Positions 9,185-61,790 of a stretch of 64,000 bases of DNA are shown one piece after another. Under the pieces are notes generated by a model. That model did no database searches and was not told where the DNA came from. It saw only the letters and a program-made list of their open reading frames with translations. A program made the translations under genes and the position numbers. How positions within the stretch are numbered: position 1 is the stretch's first letter; every line of letters starts with the position of its first letter. This stretch comes from an uncultured Gammaproteobacteria bacterium (GTDB taxonomy: Bacteria; Patescibacteriota; Patescibacteriia; Magasanikbacterales; GWA2-37-8): NCBI GenBank assembly GCA_964496095.1, contig CAZBWU010000001.1, forward strand, positions 121,474 through 185,473, given 5' to 3'.

Positions 9185-9538
9185 ATGAAAGATACTCAAA
9201 CAACTAAAAAAACAGTTACCGCCACCGAAGAAGTAAGCACTCGCATCAGAATCAAGGTTCGTGCTTATGATAATAAAATTATCGATCAAGCCGTTAAGAA
9301 CATAATTGAAACTGCTGAAAGACATGGTGCTACTATCGTTGGTCCGATTCCATTGCCAACTGAAAAGACCAAGTTTACTGTTAATCGTTCTACTTTCGTT
9401 CACAAAGATGCTCGTGAACAATTTGAAATGAGAGTCCACAAACGTTTGATTGATATTGTCAATCCTAATGCCAAAACTGTAGACGCTTTGATGAGCCTTC
9501 AAGTGCCAGCAGGTGTAGACATAGAAATCAAAATGTAG
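9185..9538 (+). CDS. rpsJ: 30S ribosomal protein S10
   Basis: [10 protein letters not shown]...VGPIPLPT...HKRLIDI signature; TTG at 9176 is an alternative start. Confidence 0.95.
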
Positions 9539-9540
9539 TT

Positions 9541-9606
9541 TGTCCCGATTTTGCTTCGAGCAAAATTGAGGATCCGCGATTCCGCGACAAAGGGGAATCG
9601 GGACAG
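9541..9606. repeat. Nested-hairpin palindromic intergenic element (outer stem GTCCCGATT/AATCGGGAC with inner hairpins)
   Basis: Inverted repeats read directly; inner hairpin ATTTTGCTtcgaGCAAAAT. Confidence 0.5.
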
Positions 9607-9642
9607 GTCCCAGCTGGCGTTGACATTGAGATAAAGATGTAA
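9607..9642 (+). pseudogene. Second copy of the rpsJ 3' end: encodes [11 protein letters not shown]-stop, identical at amino-acid level to the S10 C-terminus but with ~10 synonymous substitutions; different frame, no start codon
   Basis: gtcccagctggcgttgacattgagataaagatgtaa versus rpsJ gtgccagcaggtgtagacatagaaatcaaaatgtag. Confidence 0.55.
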
Positions 9643-9653
9643 ACCCTTGACAG

Positions 9654-9682
9654 GTAATAAAAATTGTAGTAAAATCTAGATA
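9654..9682 (+). promoter_or_regulatory. Candidate promoter TTGACA-N17-TAAAAT driving the rplC leader
   Basis: Consensus -35, 17-nt spacer, AT-rich -10. Confidence 0.5.
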
Positions 9683-9790
9683 AATAAAAAAGTTTGTTCA
9701 GACTGAGTAAATAAGATCTAAAAGCCCTGATATTACTGAATATTTAAGACGGGCGAAGAAAACATTTACAAGGTCAGAAAAAACTGGAGG

Positions 9791-9884
9791 AAAAATATTT
9801 AACAATTCACCCAGTGAAATAATTCCGATAAAATCGGAATTGCCACAAAGTGGCATTTCACAGGGTAAACAAATTAAGCCATTC
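9791..9884 (+). ncRNA. Conserved structured leader RNA motif, copy 1 (three-way junction: 10-bp closing stem CCAGTGAAAT/ATTTCACAGG, hairpin AATTCCGATaaaATCGGAATT, hairpin GCCACaaaGTGGC, tail GGGTAAACAAATTAAGCC)
   Basis: Second copy at 55486-55574 shows compensatory changes (GAT/ATC to GAC/GTC; GTGGC to GTGGT); preceded by a TTTAACAAT boxA-like string. Confidence 0.6.
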
Positions 9885-9945
9885 TAAAATTCCTTAAAGT
9901 AAGGATGTTCGCTTAGATATAAATTTGAGCGAACAAGCAAGAAGG

Positions 9946-10002
9946 CTAGAAACGAAATCGTGATTAAGTAAGATTAATTTCGCTGTCGTTTCTAGTTTTT
10001 TA
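9946..10002 (+). terminator. Leader terminator/attenuator upstream of rplC
   Basis: Stem CTAGAAACGAAAT...ATTTCGctgTCGTTTCTAG followed by TTTTTT; additional hairpin GTTCGCT...AGCGAAC at 9907-9934. Confidence 0.6.
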
Positions 10003-10038
10003 ATTAAGACTTATCTCGTATATCTGGATATTACTAGT

Positions 10039-10757: not shown

Positions 10758-11390
10758 ATGAAGACTAAAGTCTACAATTTAGAAGGTAAAGAAACCGGAG
10801 AAATGAATCTTTCCGAAGAAATTTTTGGAATTAAAATCAAGCCGGAAGTTGTGCATGAAGTTTTTGTAGCTTTAACCAACAACCAAAGAGAACCATGGGC
10901 TGACACCAAAGGTAAAGGTGAAGTTCGTGGTGGTGGTAAGAAACCTTGGCAACAAAAAGGTACTGGTCGCGCTAGACACGGTTCTATTCGTTCTCCAATC
11001 TGGAAGGGCGGCGGTGTCACTTTTGGTCCATTATCTATCCGTAATTATAAAACTAAAATTAATAAAAAAATTAAAAAGTTGGCTACCAAAATGTGTTTGG
11101 CAGATCGCGCTCAAAATAATTCCTTCTTGGTAGTTGAAGATTTTAATTTCTCTGAACCAAAGACAAAATTATTTGTAAAATTTATCGCCGCTTTACCAAA
11201 AAAATTCAAATCATTTTTAGTGCTTACTCCTGGTAAGAATGATAACTTGATCAGAATGACTAGAAATTTGAAATCAATCCAAACTACCAGAATCGAAGAT
11301 GTGAATGTGATGGATTTACTATCAAATACAGCTGTGATTATCAATAAGTCAGGCGTAGAAAAATTAGAAACCGCTTTTAGTAAAATTTAG
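10758..11390 (+). CDS. rplD: 50S ribosomal protein L4
   Basis: KGTGRARHGSIRSPIWKGGGVTFGP motif. Confidence 0.95.
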   Translation: MKTKVYNLEGKETGEMNLSEEIFGIKIKPEVVHEVFVALTNNQREPWADTKGKGEVRGGGKKPWQQKGTGRARHGSIRSPIWKGGGVTFGPLSIRNYKTKINKKIKKLATKMCLADRAQNNSFLVVEDFNFSEPKTKLFVKFIAALPKKFKSFLVLTPGKNDNLIRMTRNLKSIQTTRIEDVNVMDLLSNTAVIINKSGVEKLETAFSKI

Positions 11391-11398
11391 TTTATTAT

Positions 11399-11905
11399 AT
11401 GGGTTTGATTAACAACTGGTTAAACAAGAAAGAAAAAGATCAATTAAAAGATGCAAGTGAGAAAAAAACTCCGAAAGTTTTGGTTGCTAAAGAAAAAGTG
11501 GTTAAAGCCAAAGCAGTTGCAAAACATGTTGGCCACGACCACAGTGAAGAAAAAGTTGTTAAATCAAAAAAAGCAAAAGAAGCAGAACCAGTTAAAAGTA
11601 AATTGAAATTATCAAATCATAGCACTGCTTATAGAGTTTTGGTAAAACCACTTGTTACTGAAAAGAGCGCTATTGCCGAAAGTAAAAATAAATATAGTTT
11701 TGTAGTTAGTCGCAATGCTAACAAGAATCAAGTAAGAGAAGCTGTTTCTGAGATTTATGGAGTAAAGGCAGTTAAAGTAAATATTATAAATACAGACGGA
11801 CGACCAATGCGTTTTGGTAGATCAATGGGAAGACGCAGTGATTATAAAAAAGCAATTGTAACTTTGCCTGTTGGCTCTACAATTGATATTCATGCAGGAG
11901 TTTAA
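11399..11905 (+). CDS. rplW: 50S ribosomal protein L23 with ~68-aa Lys/Ala-rich N-terminal extension (or a separate small K-rich ORF plus L23 starting at TTG 11603)
   Basis: C-terminal 100 aa (YRVLVKPLVTEK...GRSMGRRSDYKKAIVTL) are canonical L23; no internal ATG before the domain. Confidence 0.85.
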   Translation: MGLINNWLNKKEKDQLKDASEKKTPKVLVAKEKVVKAKAVAKHVGHDHSEEKVVKSKKAKEAEPVKSKLKLSNHSTAYRVLVKPLVTEKSAIAESKNKYSFVVSRNANKNQVREAVSEIYGVKAVKVNIINTDGRPMRFGRSMGRRSDYKKAIVTLPVGSTIDIHAGV

Positions 11906-18590: not shown

Positions 18591-19040
18591 ATGTCTTTAC
18601 ACATTCATACAATTGGACCTGCTAAAGGAGCAAAATCTGCCAGAAAATTACTTGGTAGAGGTAGTGCTTCCGGACGTGGTACAACCGCTGGCCGTGGTGG
18701 AAAAGGACAAACTGCCAGATCTGGTGGTAGTCATGGCACTGTGCGCCGTGGTTTTAAGTTTCAATTACAATCAACTCCAAAACTTCGTGGTTTCAATAGT
18801 TTCCGAAACAAACCAGCTGAAGTGTATTTGTCTGATTTAGAAAATAAATTTGCCGAAGGTGAAGTTGTAAATATTGCTTCTTTGAAAGAAAAAGATCTGA
18901 TTAATACTCAAGTCAAAACTGCTAAGGTTTTGTCTACTGGAGAAATCACCAAAAAATTAGTTATAGAAGGCCTCTTATTCACTAAAGCTGCAGCTGAGAA
19001 AATTAAAGCTGTTGGCGGTGAAATTCACCCTGTTAAATAA
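18591..19040 (+). CDS. rplO: 50S ribosomal protein L15 (no rpmD/L30 between S5 and L15)
   Basis: GRGSASGRGTTAGRGGKGQ motif. Confidence 0.95.
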   Translation: MSLHIHTIGPAKGAKSARKLLGRGSASGRGTTAGRGGKGQTARSGGSHGTVRRGFKFQLQSTPKLRGFNSFRNKPAEVYLSDLENKFAEGEVVNIASLKEKDLINTQVKTAKVLSTGEITKKLVIEGLLFTKAAAEKIKAVGGEIHPVK

Positions 19041-19127
19041 TTTCAAATTCCATAATATTTTGTTATACTTAATGTATTAAGAATAGGTAGGTAAAAGAAA
19101 TTACACGGGGTTTATTAATAATTTGAA

Positions 19128-19160
19128 ATTAAGATTTAAGCGTACCGCTTAAATCTTATT
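19128..19160 (+). promoter_or_regulatory. Perfect 14-bp hairpin TTAAGATTTAAGCG-tac-CGCTTAAATCTTAT immediately upstream of the secY start; extended -10 TGTTATACT at 19063-19071
   Basis: Inverted repeat read directly, 13 nt before ATG. Confidence 0.45.
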
Positions 19161-19173
19161 TAACAGGGTAAAT

Positions 19174-22025: not shown

Positions 22026-22133
22026 TATCCTAAAATCTTAATGATTATTTTTCGCTTTCCTCGCCGCGAGGCTCAGGGATGGTCGCCTCGGGCGACCATA
22101 ACCCGCTTAAAAATAATCATTAAGATTAAAATA
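22026..22133. repeat. Nested-hairpin palindromic element (18-bp AT-rich outer stem TAATGATTATTTTTCGC/GCTTAAAAATAATCATTA, inner GC hairpins CCTCGCcgCGAGG and GGTCGCCtcGGGCGACC)
   Basis: Read directly; replaces the usual infA-rpmJ-rpsM-rpsK-rpoA continuation. Confidence 0.55.
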
Positions 22134-23778: not shown

Positions 23779-23878
23779 TGTATTTGTTCTGGTAAAATTT
23801 TTGTGGTAGCCAGACTTATCCCGACAAAGTCGGGATTGCCCCTGTGGGGGTGCGATGGCTACAACAAAAATTTTACCA
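23779..23878. repeat. Nested-hairpin palindromic element (outer stem TTCTGGTAAAATTTTTGTGGTAGCC/GGCTACAACAAAAATTTTACCAGAA; inner ATCCCGACaaaGTCGGGAT and CCCCtgtGGGGG)
   Basis: Read directly; lies between the MgtE-N/CBS gene and the NRAMP gene. Confidence 0.55.
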
Positions 23879-23901
23879 GAACATGGTTTGAATTTTTAAT
23901 T

Positions 23902-27238: not shown

Positions 27239-27325
27239 CATTAAAAATTTGACATGAGTATGGCTACATGATACAGTTTTAATAGTATGATAATGACTGT
27301 CCAACAAAACTTTGCTTACTATTTT

Positions 27326-27400
27326 AGACGCTCTGGCTAGGGACGTGTTATTTTGTTAGTGCAAACAATAACGTCGCTCTAGCCAGAGCGTCTTTTTTTA
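27326..27400 (+). terminator. Long hairpin terminator (15-bp stem AGACGCTCTGGCTAG/CTAGCCAGAGCGTCT + T7)
   Basis: Read directly; preceded by TTGACA-N18-TACAGT near 27250. Confidence 0.65.
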
Positions 27401-27426: not shown

Positions 27427-27770
27427 GGTCAGGGCGGTCGCCGGCAAGAGTAGAAAAAGTTTTTCTTTTCTTGCTGGCGACCTCCCTGCCAATGAGTGGG
27501 AGGAGAAAGGGTGGGGCATATGCCCTCCGTTGATCCGACTGTCACTCCTCCGATTGCTGAGCAGCCGGAGGGGCCTACTCCCTCCACGTCTGCTTCTAGT
27601 CCTTCTGGCAGCGACCCCCAGAGAGAGGCTGTGTCTTCGCCTCCGCAAGCTGACAAGCTCGCGGGCGGTAACTGGGGCAAGAAGCCTAGCCTAGGTTGGT
27701 AGAGATGACCAGGCAGGCGCGAGGGCCGCCCTGACCGAGATTCGGTTGGGGCGGCCGCTTTTATTTTAAA
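27427..27770. other. GC-rich (~62%) island bounded by 11-bp inverted repeats GGTCAGGGCGG/CCGCCCTGACC, with terminal GC hairpin + T-run; contains a 60-codon Pro/Ser-rich ORF with Shine-Dalgarno
   Basis: Composition shift versus AT-rich flanks; inverted repeats at 27427-27437 and 27727-27737. Confidence 0.5.
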
Positions 27771-31358: not shown

Positions 31359-32126
31359 ATGGCTGAAATAATCGCCGTGGTAAACCAAAAAGGCGGGGTA
31401 GGGAAGACTACCACCGCCGTCAATCTAGCCGCAGCTTTGGCTGAAAGCGGTAAGTTTGTGTTACTTGTTGATTTGGATCCTCAAGGTAATGCTACTTCTG
31501 GATTGGGAATAAAGTATCAAGAATTAGAACAAGGTTTGTATCATAGTTTGTCTGGACAGGTTAGACTTCACGATGTCGTACTTAATACCGCCCATGCGGG
31601 TCTGCGCGTGGCACCAGCAACACCTGATTTGGCAGGGGCTAATGTAGAGCTGGTGAGTGTTGAAAATCGTGAGCGAAAACTACATGGGATTTTGTCTGAA
31701 GTAGCCCATGCTTATGATTATATTATTATAGATTGTCCGCCGTCCCTTGGAATTCTTACTCTCAACGGGCTGATTGCTGCTGACCATATTCTTATTCCCG
31801 TGCAGGCCGAATATTATGCTTTGGAAGGGTTGGGGCAACTGCTCAAAACCATAGAGATGATTCGAGTAAATTTAAAACCAGAATTAAAAATTTTGGGAGC
31901 AGTGCTGACTATGTATGATTCACGTAATAGCTTATCAGCTGAAGTTATGGATGAGCTTTATAAATTTTTCCCTGACAGTATCTTTCGATCAGTTATTCCT
32001 CGCACTGTACGATTGGCAGAGGCGCCAAGTTTTGGGAAAAGTATTTTTCATTATGACGCTAGTGGTAAAGCCGCTAAGGCATATGAGAGGCTGGGCCGAG
32101 AATTTTTGGATAGGTTTGAACAATAA
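31359..32126 (+). CDS. parA: Chromosome partitioning ATPase ParA/Soj
   Basis: KGGVGKTTT deviant Walker A. Confidence 0.93.
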   Translation: MAEIIAVVNQKGGVGKTTTAVNLAAALAESGKFVLLVDLDPQGNATSGLGIKYQELEQGLYHSLSGQVRLHDVVLNTAHAGLRVAPATPDLAGANVELVSVENRERKLHGILSEVAHAYDYIIIDCPPSLGILTLNGLIAADHILIPVQAEYYALEGLGQLLKTIEMIRVNLKPELKILGAVLTMYDSRNSLSAEVMDELYKFFPDSIFRSVIPRTVRLAEAPSFGKSIFHYDASGKAAKAYERLGREFLDRFEQ

Positions 32127-32127
32127 T

Positions 32128-32221
32128 CAATTGTCATCGCGAGGCCAAAGGCCGTGGCGATCCCATAGTATGGTAGTGGAACCATGAGATTGCTTCGTCG
32201 CTAGCTCCTCGCAATGACACA
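32128..32221. repeat. Palindromic element with TGTCAT-type terminal inverted repeats (AATTGTCATCGCGAGG...CCTCGCAATGACACAATT)
   Basis: Read directly. Confidence 0.5.
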
Positions 32222-32246
32222 ATTTTTAAACTTGTAACTTATTAAT

Positions 32247-33092
32247 ATGGCTTTAGGTAAAGGACTCGGCGCCTTGATAGCAGGTGCGCCAAAACAATAC
32301 AGATCAGAAACTCCAGCTTCTAACGATGGTCAAGAGCGAATTTGGCATATTCCGGTAACAGCTATATCTCCTGGTGCCAATCAGCCCCGTAAAAGTTTCA
32401 CTACTCCCGAGCTAGATGATTTGGCTGCTTCCATAAAAGAACACGGCATCCTGCAGCCGTTAATTGTGACCGAAAGCATTGATGGTGGTTATGAGCTTAT
32501 TGCCGGTGAAAGGCGATGGCGAGCGGCGCAACAAGTAGGCCTGGCGACAGTGCCAGCGATTATAAAAAAATTAGCTGATCGTCAAAAGTTAGAGATAGCT
32601 TTGATAGAAAATATTCAACGAGAAAATTTAACTCCGATCGAAGAAGCGTTTGCCTACCAGCGTTTGATGGAAGAATTTTCTTTGACTCAACAAGAAGTGT
32701 CAGAGAAGGTTGGCAAGAGTCGTCCGGCTGTAGCCAACACTATTCGATTGCTCAGTTTACCAGCAGAAGTACAAGCCGCTCTGACAGATAAAAGAATTAA
32801 TATGAGTCAGGCACGCGCTTTATTGTCTTTAGAAAATCAAAAACAGCAACTGGATATGCTGTCTTCGATGCTAGGGCAACGCATTACCGTGCGAGAGCTT
32901 GAGAGAAATGTTAGTATTAAAAATCCTGCCAAGAGTCATCGCGATCCAAACCTGGCTTATCTAGAAGACGAACTTCGTACAGCTTTAGGGACCAAAGTTT
33001 CAATTACCAAAAAAGGGGAGAGGGGTACAATTCTTATTGATTTTTATTCAGGAGAAGAATTGAATAGACTGATTAAAAAAATTACTGAATAA
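32247..33092 (+). CDS. parB: Chromosome partitioning protein ParB/Spo0J
   Basis: GERRWRAAQ motif, HTH. Confidence 0.93.
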   Translation: MALGKGLGALIAGAPKQYRSETPASNDGQERIWHIPVTAISPGANQPRKSFTTPELDDLAASIKEHGILQPLIVTESIDGGYELIAGERRWRAAQQVGLATVPAIIKKLADRQKLEIALIENIQRENLTPIEEAFAYQRLMEEFSLTQQEVSEKVGKSRPAVANTIRLLSLPAEVQAALTDKRINMSQARALLSLENQKQQLDMLSSMLGQRITVRELERNVSIKNPAKSHRDPNLAYLEDELRTALGTKVSITKKGERGTILIDFYSGEELNRLIKKITE

Positions 33093-34676: not shown

Positions 34677-34830
34677 AGTAATTAAATTTTATCCTATTTT
34701 TTTGATTAAGGCAATTACCATTGACATTCTGTCTCCTTTGTGGTAAGGTGCGCCCCGACCCATCTAGCCCGGCATATCGCTGGAGGATGAGGGGTCATCT
34801 CACCAGTTCCGTTACTCGTCGGAGGATTCC

Positions 34831-35187
34831 ATGAACCGCTTCGGTGGTCTCTCGTTCGTCACCCTCGTCACCCTCGCCATCACCGCCTGCACCGAGTCCG
34901 CCGACATCGAGTCGGCGCCGGTCATCACCGATCCGCACGGCCGCGAGGCGGCCGTCGTGGACATCAGCGAGCTGGACCTCGACATGCGGGCGATCGCGAC
35001 CGATCTGGTCGATGAGGTCAGCACGACGCCGCCGCCCAGCGGCGGCGTCATCGAGAAGGGGTGCCGCTGGCTGGAGCTCGATTTCCTCGGTTGCGCGGTG
35101 TCGGTCGGCGCCTGCTTCATCCCGAGCTCCTTCGAGCCGGGCTGGTCGGTGGCGGTGCTCGTCACCGAGCCCTACTGCGAGCCCTAG
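34831..35187 (+). CDS. Putative lipoprotein of foreign (high-GC, actinobacterial-like) codon usage inside a ~560-bp ~68% GC island
   Basis: GGAGG 7 nt upstream; lipobox LAITAC; GC3 near 90% versus ~25% in neighbours; GGGCttcGCCC hairpin after stop; overlapping ORFs in other frames are composition artefacts. Confidence 0.55.
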   Translation: MNRFGGLSFVTLVTLAITACTESADIESAPVITDPHGREAAVVDISELDLDMRAIATDLVDEVSTTPPPSGGVIEKGCRWLELDFLGCAVSVGACFIPSSFEPGWSVAVLVTEPYCEP

Positions 35188-35412
35188 CGGGCTTCGGCCC
35201 CTGGGAGGTCACCGGCGGGTGCCTCGACCGGTCCCCTGCCCGCGGACGTAGAGCCGCGGAGAGGCGCAGCCGTTCACGCGCTGCCGCCTGGTCGTTCGTT
35301 GTCGCGTAATGTTTATAAATTATTTGTAGATATTACCCGAACGATCAGGATTTTTTTAAAAAACACTGCTTAGTAATAGGCGGTGTTTTTAATATGTATG
35401 AATTAATAAATA

Positions 35413-37924: not shown

Positions 37925-38176
37925 TTTATTAGCTTACCACCGCCATGAGGCGGGGTCCCGCTGTAGCGGGATTAGGTTGTAGCTTTTTAGCATGTTAGTG
38001 ATCAATGGTTTTCGTCTGTCATCCTGAATGAAATGAAGTATCCCTGTTAGTTTCGTTCGTTGTCATTCCCAACTTGATTGGGAATCCAGGGTGCGTTCGA
38101 ATTGTCTGGATTCCCGCTTTGGCGGGAATGACATTGTGCGGACAGAGATTCTTCGCTCTGCTCAGAATGACAGTTT
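37925..38176. repeat. Cluster of hairpins and TGTCAT(T/C)CC repeats (direct at 38016 and 38061; inverted GGGAATGACA at 38124) in the gyrA upstream region
   Basis: Hairpins CCGCCatgaGGCGG, TCCCGCTgtAGCGGGA, ATTCCCaacttgatTGGGAAT, GGGAATCCAG...CTGGATTCCC. Confidence 0.55.
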
Positions 38177-39140: not shown

Positions 39141-39353
39141 AAGAGTATTTTTTAGAAATAATATAAGGGTCAGAGCCTTGACTAAAGGGTCAAGTAATGA
39201 TAAAGTGAGATGACGATTGAGACTAGTTTAACATATCATTTATAGGGATACAAGGGTAGGCGACAAGGTCTGAGTATAACCCTTGACAAAACCCGAAAAA
39301 TAGTGTATATTAAGACGTTACTTAAATTAATAAAAATCATTAATAATATAGAT

Positions 39354-42300
39354 ATGCAAAAGCAAAACCTCGGGAAGTTTAAATCAGTGGCTAGTTTAGC
39401 CATTTTTGGCGTTATGGCTGTCGTTGGTATTTTAGGGACAAGTTTGGGCGCGAAGGCTGCGTTGATAAATGCAGACCAGGTATTAGGGCAATTAGATGAA
39501 ACTGGTCAGCCAAACTTTAATCAAGGTTTGACCAACAGTTCGTTTGTAAATAATTATGGCTTTAGTAGTCCATATGGGATAGCGATGGATAAAGTTGGTC
39601 ACCGCCTATTTGTGGCTGATAATCCTAATCATCGTGTCTTGGTATTTAGTCTTGGTAATGATAATAATTTATTAGATTTTCATGCAGACCATGTTTTAGG
39701 TCAAAATAATTTTAGTGATAGTACGTATAACAATGGTGGTAATCCAGGTATAGACGGTGACGGAGATGTAATAATTGTGCCAGGCGCAGGATCTTTGTAT
39801 TCTCCAACAGCTCTTTTATTTAATCCAGCTAGCAATACTCTGTATGTTGCTGATTCTGGCAATAATCGCGTTCTTGTCTTTGACGTTGCCGTTATCGATA
39901 ACGGTGAAGATGCGGGTAGTGTTTTAGGTCAGAATGATTTTATAAGTTTTTTCTCAAATAAGGGTGGTCTTATAGGTGTCAGTACTTTAAAAAATCCTTC
40001 TGGTTTGGCTTTCGATTCAACTAGTAAAATTTTGTATGTTTCTGATTCTGGCAATCACCGTGTCTTAGCTTTTGATGCCACCACTATTGTTAATGGTGAG
40101 GACGCAGTTAATGTCATAGGACAGGCTGATTTTTTAGGTGGTTCTTCTAATCAAGCTAGTATTGTTGGTACCTCCACTTTAAATAATCCTATTGGAATTT
40201 CTTTAAATCCTGCTAGTCATATATTATATGTTGCCGATTCTGGCAATCACCGTGTCTTAGCTTTTGATGCCACTACTATTGTTAACGGTGAGGATGCGGT
40301 CAGTGTATTAGGACAGGCTGATTTTTTAAGTGGCACACCAAATGGGGGTACTTTTGTAGGAGCGGGGACTATGTTCTCCCCTCAGTATGTTTCTTTTAAT
40401 TCAGTTAGTAATTATTTATTAGTTTCAGATTCTGTTAATAATCGTGTCTTAGCTTTTGATGCCACTACTATTGTTAACGGTGAGGATGCGGTCAATGTAT
40501 TAGGACAGGCTAATTTTGTTGGCCATACAGCCAACCGTGGTGGGGCTGTTGGAGCTGGGACAATGAGTTACCCTTCAGGTTTTTTTTATAATTCTGATAA
40601 CAGTAAGTTGTATGTGCTTGATGTAAATAATCACCGTGTGCTAATTTTTGATGTATCTATTCCTGCCGCTATTGATAATGGTGAAAATGCAATTTCAGTT
40701 TTAGGCCAATTGGACTCATTGGGCCTTCCAAGCTATAATCAAAAGCTTGCTAACAGTACTCTAGTAAGTGATTTTGGTTTTGATCCAAATTATACATATG
40801 GAGCCTCAGTTAGTGTGGACTCTGCTGGTCATAGATTGTTTGTTTCAGACACAGGGAATAATCGTGTCTTAGTTTTTAATTTGGATAATGATAATAAGCT
40901 AGTAGATTATCACGCTGATTATGTTTTGGGTCAGGCTGATTTTGTTAGTAATTATTCTAATCGAAATGGCGTGTTGGGAGCCGGAACTTTAAGTAATCCA
41001 ACAAGTATTTTTTTTAGTGCTAGTAATAATACCTTGTATGTAGCTGACAATGATAATTATCGTGTCCTTGCCTTTGATGTTGCTACCATTGCTAATGGTG
41101 AAAATGCTGTTAACGTTTTAGGTCAAACAGATTTTACAAGATTAGACAGAGAGTTGGGACCTGCAACTTTTAATTATCCAGGAGGCATTTCACTGGATAC
41201 TATTAAACATATTTTATATGTAGTTGACCCAGGTAATAATCGTGTCCTTGCCTTTGATGTAACTACTATTGATAATGGTGAAAACGCAGTAAATGTTTTA
41301 GGCCAAGCAGATTTTGTGAGCGGGGCTCCTAATCGTGATGGTGCTATTGGTGCCAATACATTGCGTCAACCCAACGAAATTTCATTAGATTCTACTAGAA
41401 ATATTTTGTATGTAGCGGACACTTTCAACAATCGTATCCTTGCCTTTGATGTAACTACTATTGATAATGGTGAAAACGCAGAAAATGTTTTAGGCCAAGC
41501 AGATTTTGTGAGTGGCGGCCTTGCTATTGGCGCCGGAAGAATGAATTGGCCTGTGGGTGTTTCTTACGACCCTGGTAGTAATGGATTATTTGTAACAGAT
41601 TTCTTTAACAAACGGGTTCTTGTCTTTGATGTCTCTACCATTGATAATGGTGAAAATGCGATTAATGTCTTAGGTCAAGCTGATTTTAATTCTGCTACAA
41701 ATGGTTTAGAAGTTAATAAAGATAAATTTAATGGGCCTGCTAGTTTAACCTTTAATACAGTTAATAATAATCTTTACGTGTTTGATAGGAATAATAATCG
41801 CATTTTAGCTTTTGACATTCTTAGTTTGCCTAGCGTTGCCTTATCTAAAGGTTCAGTCTTCGTAGCGTATAACCAAACATTAAATTCAGCTATAAACGGT
41901 AGGGGTGAAGTTACATATAGTGTGACTGCTGGAGCTTTGCCTACTGGATTAAGCCTAGTTGGTCGAGTAATTAGTGGTACTCCTACTGTAGCTGGAACAT
42001 TTAATTTTACAGTTACTGCTCTTGATACATTTACTAATGGTACTACCTATAATGATGCAAAAGCATTTACTATTATTGTTGACCCAGCTCAAGGTGGTAA
42101 CGGTGGTGGAGGCGGAGGGGGCGGCGGTGGAGGTGGTGCTGGTGGTGGAGGATCTCCTGTATTTAACGCTCCAGTTGGAGGATTTAGTGTGGCCGTACAA
42201 AGTGTAGTTGCTGGCACAAATCCTGCTCAAGTTAACCTAGTATTAAATGGTGGTACAGCTACTCGTATGGTTATTGCCAATACTCCAGATTTTGCTGGAG

Positions 42301-42860
42301 CTAGTCAAGTAGTATACAGAACAAGTACTGTACATACTTTGACTGCTGGAAATGGAATAAAAACTATCTACGCCAGATTCTTTGACTCTTCTGGTACTGC
42401 TTCGGTGGTTGTGACTGCAACTACTTCTATTACCAGTACTCCAGTTAGTGTTGCACCTGCGCCTATCACTCCGGAAGTTTTGGGTGTGAAAATTACTAGA
42501 CTTGATGAGTTGGTCGCCAAGCTTAAAGCTGGTCAAACAAATAGTGAAGTAATGGAAATGCAAAACGAACTGAAGAAAGCCGGTTATTTTGCTAAGACCT
42601 TCAAAGCCACCAAATACTATGGCGCTATGACTAAAACTGCTGTCCAGAAATATTTAGCTGATAAGAATAAAAAGCCAGTGGTTGCAAAGACTCTGGATGA
42701 ATTAGTCGCTACTCTCAAACTTGGTCAAAAGAGTGATTTGGTAAAACAATTGCAAACTGAACTCAAGAAATTGAAATTCTTCCCTGCTAATATAGTTGCT
42801 ACTGGTTATTATGGTCCAGCTACCAAAACAGCGGTAAATAAATATTTAGCTTCCAAGTAA
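39354..42860 (+). CDS. Secreted NHL-repeat protein (~15 NNRVL(A/V)FD repeats) with Gly-rich linker and two C-terminal peptidoglycan-binding-like (PG_binding_1-type) modules
   Basis: Signal peptide MQKQN...FGVMAVVGILG; repeat unit about 63 aa; C-terminal L..G..S..V..LQ.ELKK.G...G.YG..T..AV.KY modules; GTG at 39303 is an alternative start. Confidence 0.8.
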   Translation: MQKQNLGKFKSVASLAIFGVMAVVGILGTSLGAKAALINADQVLGQLDETGQPNFNQGLTNSSFVNNYGFSSPYGIAMDKVGHRLFVADNPNHRVLVFSLGNDNNLLDFHADHVLGQNNFSDSTYNNGGNPGIDGDGDVIIVPGAGSLYSPTALLFNPASNTLYVADSGNNRVLVFDVAVIDNGEDAGSVLGQNDFISFFSNKGGLIGVSTLKNPSGLAFDSTSKILYVSDSGNHRVLAFDATTIVNGEDAVNVIGQADFLGGSSNQASIVGTSTLNNPIGISLNPASHILYVADSGNHRVLAFDATTIVNGEDAVSVLGQADFLSGTPNGGTFVGAGTMFSPQYVSFNSVSNYLLVSDSVNNRVLAFDATTIVNGEDAVNVLGQANFVGHTANRGGAVGAGTMSYPSGFFYNSDNSKLYVLDVNNHRVLIFDVSIPAAIDNGENAISVLGQLDSLGLPSYNQKLANSTLVSDFGFDPNYTYGASVSVDSAGHRLFVSDTGNNRVLVFNLDNDNKLVDYHADYVLGQADFVSNYSNRNGVLGAGTLSNPTSIFFSASNNTLYVADNDNYRVLAFDVATIANGENAVNVLGQTDFTRLDRELGPATFNYPGGISLDTIKHILYVVDPGNNRVLAFDVTTIDNGENAVNVLGQADFVSGAPNRDGAIGANTLRQPNEISLDSTRNILYVADTFNNRILAFDVTTIDNGENAENVLGQADFVSGGLAIGAGRMNWPVGVSYDPGSNGLFVTDFFNKRVLVFDVSTIDNGENAINVLGQADFNSATNGLEVNKDKFNGPASLTFNTVNNNLYVFDRNNNRILAFDILSLPSVALSKGSVFVAYNQTLNSAINGRGEVTYSVTAGALPTGLSLVGRVISGTPTVAGTFNFTVTALDTFTNGTTYNDAKAFTIIVDPAQGGNGGGGGGGGGGGGAGGGGSPVFNAPVGGFSVAVQSVVAGTNPAQVNLVLNGGTATRMVIANTPDFAGASQVVYRTSTVHTLTAGNGIKTIYARFFDSSGTASVVVTATTSITSTPVSVAPAPITPEVLGVKITRLDELVAKLKAGQTNSEVMEMQNELKKAGYFAKTFKATKYYGAMTKTAVQKYLADKNKKPVVAKTLDELVATLKLGQKSDLVKQLQTELKKLKFFPANIVATGYYGPATKTAVNKYLASK

Positions 42861-44513: not shown

Positions 44514-44546
44514 AAAAATCCAGCCCCAAAAGGGCTGGATTTTTTG
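44514..44546 (+). terminator. Rho-independent terminator AAAAATCCAGCCC-caaaa-GGGCTGGATTTTTT
   Basis: Perfect 9-bp stem + T6. Confidence 0.8.
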
Positions 44547-44555
44547 TTCATTTTG

Positions 44556-44592
44556 TGGTATAATACAATTATATGAATTAAAAATTCATATA
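44556..44592 (+). promoter_or_regulatory. Extended -10 promoter TGgTATAAT followed by perfect palindrome ATATGAATT-aaa-AATTCATAT (operator-like) upstream of the CAP-domain gene
   Basis: Read directly. Confidence 0.5.
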
Positions 44593-44684
44593 AACTCATT
44601 CGCTCGGAAATACTCAGTTCAATATTTATAATTCGTAATCGATTATAAATATCTCACCGACTATTTCACTCGCTCATTTCGATT

Positions 44685-47934: not shown

Positions 47935-47941
47935 AAAAAGT

Positions 47942-47976
47942 AAAAAATCCACCTTTAAATCAGGGTGGATTTTTTG
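47942..47976 (+). terminator. Rho-independent terminator AAAAAATCCACC...GGGTGGATTTTTT
   Basis: Read directly. Confidence 0.75.
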
Positions 47977-48054
47977 TTTCTAGCATTGACAAAATGACTT
48001 AGAGTGGCTATTATACCTCTATAAGAACCGAGAAATCGGCGATTTTGCGTATTT

Positions 48055-48107
48055 ACCCTGTTAAATGTCGCTTTGCGACACCCGACCTTGTCGGGATTTA
48101 ACAGGGT
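48055..48107. repeat. Nested-hairpin palindromic element (outer ACCCTGTTAAAT/ATTTAACAGGGT; inner GTCGCtttGCGAC and CCCGACcttGTCGGG)
   Basis: Read directly; shares a CCCGAC...GTCGGG hairpin with the element at 23779. Confidence 0.55.
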
Positions 48108-48124
48108 AAACCTATTAATAAATT

Positions 48125-50063: not shown

Positions 50064-50136
50064 TTGGGGGTGACAGAACTCACCTTGCTACAAGGTTGGT
50101 TCTGTAAATATGTTAGTTCGAACAGCTGTCACCCCA
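50064..50136. repeat. Nested-hairpin palindromic element (outer TTGGGGGTGACAG/CTGTCACCCCAA; inner CCTTGctaCAAGG) between uvrB and uvrA
   Basis: Read directly; preceded by hairpin TACTTTTTG-tcac-CAAAAAGTA at 50027-50051. Confidence 0.5.
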
Positions 50137-54897: not shown

Positions 54898-54954
54898 AAC
54901 AAACTAGGATTTTAAATTATCTATAGATTAGGTAATTTAAAATCCTAGTTTGTT
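54898..54954. repeat. Perfect 21-bp inverted repeat AACAAACTAGGATTTTAAATT / AATTTAAAATCCTAGTTTGTT with 15-nt loop
   Basis: Read directly; sits at the left edge of a GC-rich island. Confidence 0.7.
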
Positions 54955-55452: not shown

Positions 55453-55481
55453 GACAGTTTTGTCCATATATAGTATAATTT
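55453..55481 (+). promoter_or_regulatory. Consensus sigma70 promoter TTGACA-N17-TATAAT for the rpsA leader
   Basis: Exact hexamers, 17-nt spacer. Confidence 0.7.
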
Positions 55482-55485
55482 AGGT

Positions 55486-55574
55486 ATTAAAAATATTGAC
55501 CCAGTGAAATAATTCCGACCAAGTCGGAATTGCCACAGAGTGGTATTTCACGGGGTAAACCAATTAAGCCCTTC
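55486..55574 (+). ncRNA. Conserved structured leader RNA motif, copy 2 (upstream of rpsA)
   Basis: About 85% identical to 9791-9884 with compensatory base-pair changes in two helices. Confidence 0.6.
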
Positions 55575-55641
55575 CAATTTAGAGAAGAGCACCCGTAGCC
55601 AATTTATTGGCAGGGATAAGGAGTATTTTTTTGTTAAATAT

Positions 55642-56805
55642 ATGTCAGAAGAAAAAAACCAAAAAGAAGTTCAGGACTTCAAAACCCTGCTCGCGTCTTA
55701 TCAACTTACCATTCCAAAAGAAGGGGATGTTGTTAAGTGTAAAATAATTTCTATCGACAAAGGTGAAGTGCATGTAGACATCGAGGGTTTGACTGTGGGT
55801 GTGGTTCGTGGACGAGAATTGTTTGCCGAGTCCAAGGAATACATGAGTCTAAAAGTGGGCGACGAAGTAGAGGCCACTGTTTTGGATCTAGAAAATGAAA
55901 ATGGCGAAATGGAATTATCATTCCGCATTGCCGGTTATCAACGCGCTTGGGGTAATGTCAAGAAATGGATGCAAGACAATATTACTATCAAAGGAAAAGT
56001 GTTGGCTGCTAATAAAGGTGGTTTGATGATGCAGGTAGAAGGCTTGGCTGGTTTTATGCCAGTTTCTCAGCTTAACCCTGATCACTACCCAAGAGTTACA
56101 GGTGGCGACAAAAATCGTATTTTAGAAAAATTACGAGAATTGATGAATAAAGAATTAGAAGTGAAAGTAATTGATGTTAATGAGAAAGAAGAAAAATTAA
56201 TCGTTTCTGAAAAAGCCGTTTGGGAAGATGCTCAAAAGACTGTTTTGGAATCATACAAAGTTGGCGACGCAGTAGAAGGAGAGATCTCTGCTTTAACTTC
56301 CTTTGGCGCCTTTGTGAAATTTGGTCAAGACTTAGAAGGTTTGGTTCATATTTCCGAAATCGCTTGGCAGCGTATTGATCATCCTAAGGATATTCTCAAA
56401 GTGGGTGATAAGGTTAAAGCTCAAATTATCCAACTCGACAGATCCAAGATTTATTTGTCTATCAAACGTTTGGTAGATGATCCATGGAAGACTGTAAAGG
56501 ATAAATATAAAGTTGGCGACAAGGTTGAAGGTAAGATTTTGAAGATTGAACCGTTTGGTTTGATGGTTGCCTTGGACAAAGACATTCACGGCTTGGCTCA
56601 CATCTCTGAGTTAGCTGATGAAGGTATTACCAATATCTCCGAGAAGTTCAAGATCGGTCAAACTACTGACTTTGAAGTTGTTTCCTTAGAACCACCAGAG
56701 CACCGATTAGGTTTGAGATTATATGGTGTTAAAGGAAAAGCCAAAAAAGTAGAAGAAAAGCCAGTCGACGAAGCCAAGAAACCAGCTGAGGAGAAAAAGG
56801 CTTAA
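55642..56805 (+). CDS. rpsA: 30S ribosomal protein S1 (four S1 domains)
   Basis: Repeated S1 OB-fold motifs (G..V.G.V......G.FV); the ORF-track start at 55540 overlaps the leader motif and is unlikely. Confidence 0.9.
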   Translation: MSEEKNQKEVQDFKTLLASYQLTIPKEGDVVKCKIISIDKGEVHVDIEGLTVGVVRGRELFAESKEYMSLKVGDEVEATVLDLENENGEMELSFRIAGYQRAWGNVKKWMQDNITIKGKVLAANKGGLMMQVEGLAGFMPVSQLNPDHYPRVTGGDKNRILEKLRELMNKELEVKVIDVNEKEEKLIVSEKAVWEDAQKTVLESYKVGDAVEGEISALTSFGAFVKFGQDLEGLVHISEIAWQRIDHPKDILKVGDKVKAQIIQLDRSKIYLSIKRLVDDPWKTVKDKYKVGDKVEGKILKIEPFGLMVALDKDIHGLAHISELADEGITNISEKFKIGQTTDFEVVSLEPPEHRLGLRLYGVKGKAKKVEEKPVDEAKKPAEEKKA

Positions 56806-56919
56806 TAAAGTTTAAAAAAACATAAAAATTACAAACCCTTCGTCAAAAACGAGGGGTTTGTTTATCCCTTGCCTTTTTGGTTGAAAAAAGGTAATATTTA
56901 TTAACAATTTAAAACAAAT

Positions 56920-57001
56920 ACATAATAATTTTTTAGCGTCCAAATGCCCTGCGGGCACCCCTGCGGGGGTTGGTGATGGACGCTGTAAAAAATTATTATG
57001 T
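56920..57001. repeat. Nested-hairpin element with conserved core GCGTCCAAA...GGTTGGTGATGGACGC (22-bp AT-rich outer stem, inner TGCCCtgcGGGCA and CCCCtgcGGGGG)
   Basis: Read directly; paralog at 61690-61790. Confidence 0.6.
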
Positions 57002-57032
57002 ATTCTTAAATCCTTATAAATAAAAAATCCTT

Positions 57033-61680: not shown

Positions 61681-61689
61681 CAATTAGCA

Positions 61690-61790
61690 AAAGACTAATT
61701 TTATTGCGTCCAAACAGCCACTCGCTTGGGCGAGCAGCTGCCTCTGCGGAGGTTGGTGATGGACGCTACCAAAATTAGTCTTTTTTTGTT
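61690..61790. repeat. Nested-hairpin element, second copy of the GCGTCCAAA...GGTTGGTGATGGACGC core; followed by T7 (probable terminator of the ATPase gene)
   Basis: Outer stem AAGACTAATTTTATTGCGTCC/GGACGC..AAAATTAGTCTT; inner hairpins of different sequence but same layout as 56920. Confidence 0.6.

What the first reader, a model, noticed from the sequence alone, without database searches (positions are those of the whole stretch)
22026..22133. Family of nested-hairpin palindromic intergenic elements with a common architecture
At least seven intergenic sites carry the same design: a long AT-rich outer stem enclosing two short GC-rich hairpins. The sites are 9541-9606, 22026-22133, 23779-23878, 48055-48107, 50064-50136, 56920-57001 and 61690-61790. 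Some inner hairpins are shared between members (CCCGAC...GTCGGG at 23779 and 48055; CCCCTGYGGGGG at 23779 and 56920). The members are otherwise unique, which is atypical for selfish REP/MITE repeats, where sequence is conserved. One member sits exactly where the rplO-secY-adk-map operon is cut off from its usual infA-rpoA continuation. Possible roles include terminators, recombination hot spots, or a new class of structured element.
Basis: seen in the sequence. Interest (0 to 1): 0.55.

Follow-up and report, generated by a model that had tools for sequence, protein, structure and literature searches.

The report
Nested mobile palindromic repeats in a CPR genome
The hairpin-within-hairpin sequences are real and far beyond chance, but they are several families of small, fast-turning-over palindromic repeats (like MITE or REP elements) that sit inside one another in the gene spacers of a Magasanikbacteria genome; they are not terminators and not one new structured element.

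Summary
All seven sites carry long inverted repeats. Seven of 29 spacers of at least 50 nt have perfect arms of at least 14 nt, against 0.02 in shuffles, and fold z-scores run from -3.8 to -8.7.

The interpretation mostly fails.
- The members are not "otherwise unique". They fall into dispersed sequence families. Family A has four copies in the window. Family B has three copies in the window and six in related genomes. Site 1 has a homolog at a different locus in another genome. There are also a GTCATTC-type family and a family at 44590.
- Orthologous spacers in relatives are empty: map-ruvX is -4 to 25 nt in most relatives, and uvrB-uvrA is 8-29 nt. Some instead hold a different element at the same point, even in strains with 98-99% identical UvrB.
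- Family B copies cluster by genome, not by locus.
- One orthologous pair shows an outer element with and without an inner guest, which explains the nested design.
- The elements lie between promoters and start codons or between cistrons. They lack U-tracts and sit beside canonical terminators.
- The map-ruvX junction is ancestral to the clade, so no element marks a synteny break.
- Sense and antisense strands fold equally well, which points to DNA-level palindromes.

The transposition enzyme and any RNA-level effect remain unknown.

The parts
9541..9606 (+). Site 1. A palindromic element placed right after the rpsJ stop codon. It has a closing stem GTCCCGATT/AATCGGGAC and two inner hairpins.
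   Evidence: z -4.7. A homolog with 92.5% identity over 40 nt lies in the rplE-rpsN spacer of L011.
9500..9538 (+). The working 3' end of rpsJ ([12 protein letters not shown], then stop). It is the first of two copies that flank site 1.
   Evidence: It differs from the second copy at 9 positions, all third codon positions and all synonymous.
9604..9642 (+). A displaced second copy of the last 12 codons and stop of rpsJ. It runs straight into the ancestral CCCTTGACA promoter.
   Evidence: It is the only genuine case among 4786 ORF ends scanned.
9806..9869 (+). Family A copy inside the conserved rpsJ-rplC leader. It has two inner hairpins.
   Evidence: z -7.1. Absent from the same leader in L003, L005, L007 and L008.
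19024..19172 (+). Palindrome with family A terminal repeats that fills the rplO-secY spacer. The left arm adds 9 nt (HPV) to the end of rplO, and the right arm abuts the secY ATG. It encloses a second palindrome and a hairpin.
   Evidence: z -6.3. Close relatives end rplO in ...GGEIK or GGEVK followed by the stop.
22031..22131 (+). Site 2. It has a 19-bp AT-rich outer stem and two GC-rich hairpins, inserted between map and ruvX.
   Evidence: z -6.7. This spacer is -4 to 25 nt in most relatives.
23785..23883 (+). Site 3. A family B copy (core 23806-23862) with a 28-nt outer stem, upstream of the Nramp gene.
   Evidence: (z -8.4). The same spacer is empty in L006, L008 and L009. In L004, L007 and L100 it holds family B with different outer stems.
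38012..38172 (-). GTCATTC-type element that has a second GTCATTCCC...GGGAATGACA element inserted at its centre.
   Evidence: L206 carries only the outer element at the orthologous gyrA-proximal spacer.
44556..44684 (+). Insertion of about 110 nt between the -10 box and the ATG of the CAP-domain gene. It consists of a small hairpin followed by the 44590 repeat.
   Evidence: L201, L202 and L204 have only a few bases between TATAAT and ATG. The repeat recurs in L003, L007, L012 and L206.
48052..48110 (+). Site 4. A family A copy in the uvrB 5' UTR.
   Evidence: z -8.7. The promoter at 47986-48014 matches 11 of 12. The same point holds a GTCATTCC-type element in L201, L202 and L203, another hairpin in L206, and nothing in L204.
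50067..50135 (+). Site 5. An element closed by a GC-rich stem in the uvrB-uvrA spacer.
   Evidence: z -3.8. Present in L201 and L202. The spacer is only 8-29 nt in L204-L206. One compensatory pair is seen between strains.
54898..54954 (+). A plain AT-rich hairpin with 26-bp arms and no GC core. It is a candidate host-type palindrome.
   Evidence: z -11.8.
55496..55559 (+). Family A copy in the rpsA 5' UTR, about 10-20 nt downstream of a perfect promoter.
   Evidence: z -5.7. The promoter at 55451-55479 matches 12 of 12. The leader is conserved in L204 and L206 without the insert.
56917..57004 (+). Site 6. A family B copy (core 56936-56983) in the ftsH 5' UTR.
   Evidence: (z -7.7). The site is empty in L204 and L205. 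L206 holds a reduced family B variant with a different 27-bp stem.
61689..61784 (+). Site 7. A family B copy (core 61706-61766) between pilB and recG.
   Evidence: (z -6.0).

Best explanation
The sites are copies of several families of small, non-coding, palindromic dispersed repeats, of the MITE, REP or REPIN kind. They are active, or were recently, in one narrow Magasanikbacteria lineage (Candidate Phyla Radiation, CPR).

**Shown**
- They are insertions relative to related genomes.
- They occur in several copies at unrelated loci.
- Family B copies resemble each other by genome rather than by locus.
- Occupancy of a given spacer differs even between near-identical strains.

**Shown in one orthologous pair, inferred for the rest**
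- The nested design arises because these palindromes insert into the centre or apical loop of other palindromes.
- A given unit can therefore be the outer host (family A: conserved ends, variable inside) or the inner guest (family B: conserved core, copy-specific distal stem).

**Inferred**
- Spread needs an enzyme supplied in trans that acts on hairpin DNA.
- Alleles are also shuffled between strains by homologous recombination of the flanking genes. The rpsJ 3'-end duplicate is the footprint of one such import.
- Tolerated positions are transcribed spacers just upstream of start codons, so the elements end up in mRNA. There they must fold into very stable duplexes.
- The likely consequence, not demonstrated, is RNase III cleavage or an exonuclease barrier. 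It is not termination.
For: 1. **Non-random.** 7 observed against 0.02 expected, and z-scores of -3.8 to -8.7.
2. **Families.** Family A has 4 copies, two of them 90% identical over 72 nt with a compensatory change GAT/ATC to GAC/GTC. Family B has 9 copies in 5-6 genomes with 94.9% of cells paired and 5 pairs changed on both sides; 0 of 500 shuffles reach the percentage paired or the covariation score, and 18 of 500 reach the count of double-changed pairs. Site 1 has a homolog at another locus in L011. The GTCATTC type and the 44590 repeat occur in many loci.
3. **Empty orthologous sites.** These are map-ruvX, adk-map, mgtE-nramp and secY-adk, uvrB-uvrA, the ftsH 5' UTR, and the rpsA and uvrB leaders, and the CAP gene leader.
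4. **Clustering by genome.** L004a against L004b is 0.97 identical, but 0.82 and 0.63 against the copies at the orthologous locus in other genomes. Copy w6 against w7 is 0.82, against 0.60-0.62 to w3.
5. **A swap at one point.** Strains with 98-99% identical UvrB carry a different element at the same insertion point.
6. **Nesting.** The outer GTCATTC element stands alone in L206 and holds an inner guest in the window. The conserved rplC-leader hairpin CTAGAAAC/GTTTCTAG carries lineage-specific apical inserts.
7. **No strand asymmetry.** The sense strand is the more stable in 8 of 20 elements, p = 0.25.
8. **No named alternative.** There is no Rfam match even at E up to 10, and the downstream genes are unrelated: nramp, ftsH, recG, map and others.
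Against: - No transposase, RAYT or IS200/IS605 gene lies in the window, and no autonomous partner was found.
- No clear direct target-site duplication was seen.
- Copy-specific distal stems of 6-12 bp in family B sit at junctions whose ancestral spacer was only 0-13 nt, for example adk-map in L004. A pre-existing host palindrome at that site is therefore not evident there. This needs either host palindromes that are themselves mobile or a process that creates palindromes.
- All 9 family B copies point the same way as the flanking genes. This would also fit an RNA-level role.
- Only 64 kb of this genome and 1.5 Mb of relatives were seen, so no whole-genome copy number is available.
Confidence: 0.7

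Rival explanations
1. They are selected RNA structures. These would be 5'-UTR or intercistronic stem-loops that stabilise, insulate or process the host mRNAs. In a stronger form, the long outer duplex is an RNase III processing stem that releases the family B three-way-junction core as a small RNA.
For: - They lie in transcribed spacers, often 10-30 nt downstream of strong promoters or just upstream of start codons.
- All 9 family B copies are co-oriented with the genes.
- Junction nucleotides are conserved while the helices covary.
- Compensatory changes occur in an outer stem (L007 against L100) and in site 5.
- Outer stems of 19-28 bp are long enough for RNase III. Correia elements are cut that way (PMC10969869).
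Against: - The sense strand is not better folded than the antisense strand.
- Close relatives do without the elements at the same genes.
- Different elements replace each other at one site.
- Copies group by genome, not by locus.
- There is no common downstream gene class.
- Gene orientation and replication orientation coincide here (positive GC skew throughout), so the orientation bias does not separate RNA-level from DNA-level causes.
Confidence: 0.15
2. They are palindromes made in place by replication template switching (quasipalindrome perfection and outward growth), without any mobility.
For: - Arms are nearly perfect, and distal stems are copy-specific.
- A compensatory pair separates L007 and L100.
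- Inserts grow at the apex of an orthologous conserved hairpin.
- The left arm at rplO reaches into coding sequence as an in-frame 9-nt addition.
Against: This cannot explain identical cores at unrelated loci and in different genomes. Nor can it explain the sharp boundary between the shared proximal stem and the unique distal stem in L004a and L004b. It may act in addition to mobility.
Confidence: 0.1
3. They are intrinsic (rho-independent) transcription terminators, possibly bidirectional.
For: They are stable hairpins in spacers. Site 7 and the hairpin at 54898 are followed by a short T-run.
Against: - Six of the seven lack a U-tract, and none of the seven is called by the terminator scan.
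- They lie between a promoter and the start codon of genes such as uvrB, rpsA and ftsH.
- Canonical terminators (a GC stem followed by T6-7) stand separately in the same spacers at 47941-47976, 56833-56862 and 44514-44544.
- Tight operon junctions in relatives need no such element.
Confidence: 0.03

Closest known systems
Bacterial MITEs with hairpin-forming terminal inverted repeats (Correia/NEMIS, RUP, ERIC, Coxiella QMITEs)
   Same: They are small, non-coding and multi-copy, with terminal inverted repeats. They are intergenic and co-transcribed with neighbouring genes, and presence varies between strains. Correia transcripts are cleaved by RNase III at the paired repeats (PMC10969869).
   Different: No target-site duplication and no parent IS were found here. 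The interiors of family A copies are unrelated to each other. Family B copies carry copy-specific stem extensions beyond the shared repeat.
REP, BIME and REPIN elements with their RAYT transposases
   Same: They are extragenic GC-rich palindromic units combined into mosaics and forming long hairpins. They lie in transcribed spacers, are lineage-specific, and serve as targets for further insertions.
   Different: The GTAG or CGTC tag is not conserved. The matching positions covary inside a stem (GTAG, GCAG, GCGT, GCGG). No RAYT gene was seen. Copy number appears modest.
Rickettsia palindromic elements (RPEs)
   Same: They are palindromic repeats in a reduced genome that can enter coding sequence in frame (PMC10969869). 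Compare the 9-nt HPV addition to rplO and the element at the rpsJ 3' end.
   Different: RPEs are about 150 bp and are mostly inside genes. Here nearly all copies are in spacers, and the rpsJ case is a single event.
GC clusters, double-hairpin elements and repetitive hairpin-forming elements of AT-rich mitochondrial genomes
   Same: They are short GC-rich hairpin modules scattered in AT-rich spacers, with recurrent invasion and fast turnover (PMC2800124 and PMC4478555, listed).
   Different: They occur in organelles, the sequences are unrelated, and they are not described as enclosed in long AT-rich outer stems. This comparison rests on abstracts and my own knowledge.
Intrinsic terminators
   Same: A stable stem-loop in an intergenic region.
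   Different: There is no U-tract, the elements sit downstream of promoters, and separate canonical terminators are present.

Membership tests
MITE | Small non-coding element with terminal inverted repeats | tested here: met
   The elements are 59-149 nt. Family A has a 15-nt terminal repeat conserved in 4 copies. Family B has a shared proximal AT-rich stem of about 12-14 bp.
MITE | Several dispersed copies, present or absent at orthologous sites | tested here: met
MITE | Direct target-site duplication flanking each copy | tested here: inconclusive
   A possible TAAAAT repeat flanks site 2 only. Family A flanks are TTN and AAA, which are complementary rather than direct. No consistent duplication was seen.
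MITE | A parent IS or transposase with the same ends | not testable with these tools
   None lies in the 64-kb window.
REP/REPIN | Conserved GTAG or CGTC tag next to the palindrome | tested here: not met
   The first four bases of the family B closing stem vary (GTAG, GCAG, GCGT, GCGG, CTGA, ATGG) and covary with their partners.
REP/REPIN | A cognate RAYT gene in the genome | not testable with these tools
   Only 64 kb of the genome was seen, and it holds none.
Intrinsic terminator | GC-rich stem-loop followed directly by a U-tract at the end of a transcription unit | tested here: not met
   None of the seven sites is called by the scan. They lie between promoter and start codon.
Integron attC site | R'' (RYYYAAC) at the 5' end and R' (GTTRRRY) at the 3' end, between gene cassettes | tested here: not met
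   In 48052-48110 the order is reversed, with GTTAAAT at the 5' side and ATTTAAC at the 3' side. The neighbours are housekeeping genes.
Any Rfam RNA family (including small ribozymes and riboswitches) | A covariance-model match | tested here: not met
   Only tRNA-Leu reaches the gathering score. Nothing overlaps the elements at E up to 1 in the window or E up to 10 in L090 and L124.
Cis-regulatory RNA or riboswitch | Consistent association with one gene family or pathway | tested here: not met
   Family B precedes nramp, ftsH, recG and map and follows a methyltransferase gene and one other unnamed gene.

The most novel reading that the evidence does not exclude
These repeats could represent a mode of spread not described before. 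Hairpin-forming units would specifically invade the single-stranded apex or symmetry centre of other palindromes, and then gain copy-specific stem extensions through templated palindrome growth. This would produce self-nesting "Russian-doll" elements without a classical transposase or target duplication. A rarer variant is that the family B three-way-junction core is a small RNA released from host mRNAs by cleavage of the outer duplex.
Probability: 0.15. Interest if true: 0.7.

Novelty: new variant of a known kind. Interest (0 to 1): 0.4.

Why it matters
CPR (Patescibacteria) genomes are small and are usually described as streamlined and poor in repeats. Here, several palindromic repeat families fill most of the longer spacers. 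They differ between strains whose UvrB is 98-99% identical. They also turn a probably leaderless gene into one with a structured 110-nt leader, and they reach into the 3' ends of ribosomal protein genes.

If this is general, three things follow:
- The repeats are a major source of strain-level variation and of assembly breaks in CPR metagenome-assembled genomes.
- They are a ready set of markers for strain tracking.
- They form a natural experiment on how very stable 5'-UTR duplexes affect expression in organisms whose start codons here show no obvious Shine-Dalgarno sequence.

The finding does not reveal a new kind of terminator or a cause of operon rearrangement.

Tried and rejected
- **Metagenome scan for the family B core.** Only L090, L100 and L124 were true hits. 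A pattern anchored in the AT-rich stem would have done better.
- **Riboswitch or leader idea for family B.** Rejected because the downstream genes are unrelated and there is no Rfam hit.
- **Hammerhead-type mapping of the three-way junction.** The junction motifs do not fit; this is my own comparison.
- **attC reading of 48052-48110.** Rejected because the motif order is reversed.
- **Systematic replacement of gene ends by elements.** A scan of 4786 ORF ends gave only the rpsJ case. The other two hits were a tandem duplication of a tRNA 3' end and a repeat protein.
- **Inverted duplication of the target flank as the origin of the distal stems.** L007 compared with L006 and L008 was suggestive but ambiguous, because the empty site is itself a short palindrome. 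There was no support at map-ruvX or adk-map.
- **Covariance-model search of 1.45 Mb of relatives.** It returned only the seed sequences, so family B is confined to a narrow clade.
- **Literature searches.** No description of CPR palindromic repeats was found in the held library.

Full report
**Source.** The window comes from a Candidatus Magasanikbacteria genome (CPR/Patescibacteria). The 80 best SecY loci in the species-representative genome collection are mostly labelled Magasanikbacteria or Patescibacteria, although many are mislabelled as uncultured Gammaproteobacteria. GC content is about 38%, GC skew is positive throughout, and nearly all genes lie on the + strand.

**1.
- All seven sites carry long inverted repeats.
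- As single strands they fold at -27 to -57 kcal/mol with z-scores of -3.8 to -8.7. None of 200 dinucleotide shuffles folds as well.
- In my census, perfect arms of at least 14 nt around a 20-130 nt loop occur seven times, and all are intergenic (7 of the 29 spacers of 50 nt or more). The mean is 0.02 in spacer-wise shuffles and 0.1 in whole-window shuffles.
- A strict descriptor (outer stem of at least 9 bp plus at least two GC-rich inner hairpins) gives 4 against 0.04.
- Independent assemblies carry site 2 (L001 and L002) and the elements at 23779 and 19024 (L001) unchanged. They are not assembly artefacts.
- Details need correcting. Site 1 folds best as two adjacent hairpins. Site 5 has a GC-rich closing stem.

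**2. The set is larger than reported and is made of sequence families.**
- *Family A* has the ends TTYACCCWGTKAAAT...ATTTMACRGGGTAAA and four copies: 9806-9869, 19024-19172, 48052-48110 and 55496-55559. The first and last are 90% identical over 72 nt and differ by a compensatory GAT/ATC to GAC/GTC change. The insides of the other two are unrelated.
- *Family B* has a conserved core of 46-61 nt. It consists of a 7-bp closing stem NNNNCCA/TGGNNNN, a junction RAY, a variable hairpin, a second hairpin CCYC-TGYG-GRGG, and a junction T(TG)GYGA.
  - It occurs at 23806-23862, 56936-56983 and 61706-61766, twice in L004, and once each in L007, L100, L090 and L124.
  - A reduced form occurs in L206.
  - The two helices are paired in 94.9% of cells, and five pairs are changed on both sides. 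None of 500 shuffles reaches the percentage paired or the covariation score, and 18 of 500 reach the count of double-changed pairs.
  - A covariance model found nothing further in 1.45 Mb of relatives, so the family is confined to a narrow clade.
- *Site 1* has a 92.5% match in the rplE-rpsN spacer of L011.
- A GTCATTC...GAATGAC type (window 38012-38172) and the 44590 repeat recur in many loci and genomes.
- A small hairpin module YCCGAC-NNN-GTCGGR recurs inside several families.
- "Members otherwise unique" is therefore wrong.

**3. They are insertions with fast turnover.**
- *map-ruvX.* The spacer is -4 to 25 nt in most relatives that hold both genes and 114 nt in the window. Unrelated palindromic inserts fill the same junction in about a dozen other lineages.
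- *adk-map.* The spacer is 0-39 nt in the nearest relatives (0-13 nt in most), and L004 holds a family B copy there.
- *mgtE-nramp.* The spacer is 17-35 nt in L006, L008 and L009. In the window, L004, L007 and L100 it holds family B.
- *uvrB-uvrA.* The spacer is 8-29 nt in L204-L206 and 189 nt in the window and L202.
- *ftsH 5' UTR.* It is empty in L204 and L205.
- *rpsA and rplC leaders.* They are conserved in relatives without the family A insert.
- *uvrB 5' UTR.* Strains whose UvrB is 99%, 98% and 91% identical carry a GTCATTCC-type element at the very point (after GGCGATTTTRYGTATTT) where the window carries family A. L206 has a third hairpin there, and L204 has none.
- *CAP-domain gene.* L201, L202 and L204 have only a few bases between the TATAAT box and the ATG. 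The window has about 110 nt of palindromic insert.
- *Clustering.* Within family B, copies group by genome rather than by locus. L004a and L004b are 0.97 identical, but 0.82 and 0.63 to the nramp copies of the window and L007.
- This is the pattern of dispersed repeats that spread or homogenise within a genome. It is not the pattern of orthologous functional elements.

**4. Why the architecture is nested.**
- Family A keeps its ends and varies inside. Family B keeps its core and its first 12-14 bp of stem, and varies further out. The boundary is sharp in L004a and L004b. This is what one expects if palindromes insert into one another.
- One orthologous pair shows it directly. L206 has only an outer GTCATTCTGAG...CTCAGAATGAC element next to gyrA. 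The window has the same outer arms, with a second element of about 75 nt, TGTCATTCCC...GGGAATGACA, at the centre.
- The conserved terminator-like hairpin of the rplC leader (CTAGAAAC...GTTTCTAG followed by a T-run) carries different apical palindromic inserts in different lineages.
- Plain long AT-rich hairpins without a core exist, at 54898-54954.
- What stays unexplained is the origin of the copy-specific distal stems of 6-12 bp at junctions whose ancestral spacer was only a few bases. Either the AT-rich hosts are themselves mobile, or a templated palindrome-extension process acts as well. Quasipalindrome template switching is known from E. coli; this is my own knowledge.
- A compensatory A-T to G-C change in the outer stem between L007 and L100 shows that complementarity is maintained.

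**5. Position and likely effect.**
- The best promoter matches stand just upstream of family A copies. The site at 55451-55479 matches 12 of 12, the site at 47986-48014 matches 11 of 12, and the site at 9647-9675 matches 11 of 12.
- The ftsH copy follows a promoter-like block that is conserved in L204 and L206.
- Canonical terminators (a GC stem followed by T6-7) stand separately at 47941-47976, 56833-56862 and 44514-44544.
- The elements lack U-tracts, and the terminator scan calls none of the seven.
- They are therefore transcribed leader or intercistronic sequence, not terminators.
- Their outer duplexes of 19-28 bp would be good RNase III substrates, as shown for Correia elements (PMC10969869). 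That step is inferred.

**6. RNA or DNA level.**
- Sense and antisense strands fold equally well. The sense strand is the more stable in 8 of 20 elements, with a mean difference of +1.8 kcal/mol and p = 0.25. There is no sign of selection on the transcript strand.
- All nine family B copies point the same way as the flanking genes. Gene direction and replication direction coincide here, so this fits strand-specific insertion as well as an RNA role.
- No Rfam family matches.
- No transposase is encoded in the window.

**7. The rpsJ end.**
- After the rpsJ stop and the site 1 element, the last 12 codons and the stop of rpsJ occur a second time. This second copy runs straight into the ancestral promoter.
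- The two copies differ at 9 of 39 positions. All nine are third codon positions and all are synonymous. By my count the chance of this is 715 in 211,915,132, about 3e-6.
- Both copies therefore evolved as coding sequence.
- The simplest reading is that a block (rpsJ 3' end plus element) was imported from a diverged relative by recombination, with one illegitimate end.
- It is the only genuine case among 4786 ORF ends, so it is a footprint of exchange and not a property of the elements.

**8. Synteny.** The map-ruvX junction is present in almost all of the relatives that hold both genes. The loss of the infA-rpoA continuation is therefore ancestral and is not connected with site 2.

**9. Verdict.**
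- The finding is a real and statistically strong feature.
- It is best explained as several families of MITE/REP-like palindromic repeats that nest in each other and turn over quickly in one CPR lineage.
- It differs from described families in three ways: no target duplication or tag was found, the host-guest nesting is modular, and the stems carry copy-specific extensions.
- The mechanism of spread and any RNA-level effect are open.

Noticed in passing
window 9643-10038 (and L003-L024 rpsJ-rplC spacers): A structured leader, conserved and unannotated, lies between rpsJ and rplC. It starts with a CCCTTGACA-N17-TAAAAT promoter. Conserved blocks follow: AGTAAATAAGATC, AAAACATTTA, GGAGAAAA and AAGCCAATCTAA. 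It ends in a terminator-like hairpin, CTAGAAAC...GTTTCTAG plus a T-run, just before rplC. It has no Rfam match and may be a ribosomal-protein (L3/L4) leader or attenuator.
   Followed up: partly
window 55480-55643; L204 16950-17063; L206 17250-17350: The rpsA leader is conserved (AAATTAAGCCCTCCCAATTTAGAGG...GGGATAAGGAG followed by a T-run). It shares the AAATTAAGCC box with the rplC leader. Family A is inserted directly upstream of that box in both leaders.
   Followed up: partly
window 9500-9538 and 9604-9642: The last 12 codons of rpsJ are duplicated, and the two copies differ only at synonymous third positions. This points to import of a foreign gene end by recombination.
   Followed up: yes
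window 34800-35300; L201 11920-12330; secY-adk spacers of L013-L015: Islands of about 65% GC lie inside genomes of 38-45% GC. The one in the window contains a + strand ORF (34831-35187) that begins MNRFGGLSFVTLVTLAITAC, which looks like a lipoprotein signal. L201 has a high-GC insert of about 400 nt right after uvrB that the window lacks. These are either horizontal acquisitions or chimeric assembly.
   Followed up: no
window 44545-44560 compared with L201 6510-6526, L202 6505-6524, L204 3575-3593: In close strains the TATAAT box of the CAP-domain gene sits only a few bases from the ATG, which suggests a leaderless mRNA. The window has a structured leader of about 110 nt there instead.
   Followed up: partly
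window 27249-27400 and 27724-27756: A promoter-like site (27249-27277, with a TG extension) is followed by a long GC-rich hairpin (27326-27393) and a T7 run. A second strong terminator lies at 27724-27756, in a 612-nt gene-free stretch after tRNA-Leu. These are candidate small RNA genes with no Rfam match.
   Followed up: no
L078 about 11000-11500 (minus strand): The 3' end of a tRNA gene and about 120 nt of downstream sequence are repeated in tandem, as at the attachment sites of integrative elements.
   Followed up: no
window 39303-42860: A large ORF of 1185 aa contains internal DNA repeats spaced about 180-190 nt apart (k-mers recur at 40676, 41093, 41273, 41465 and 41645). Its length varies between strains: 867 aa in L202 and more than 1200 aa in L201.
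   Followed up: no
window 31359-33092: parA and parB lie next to gyrA and the relA/spoT homolog, and GC skew does not change sign across the window. The region may be near the replication origin.
   Followed up: no
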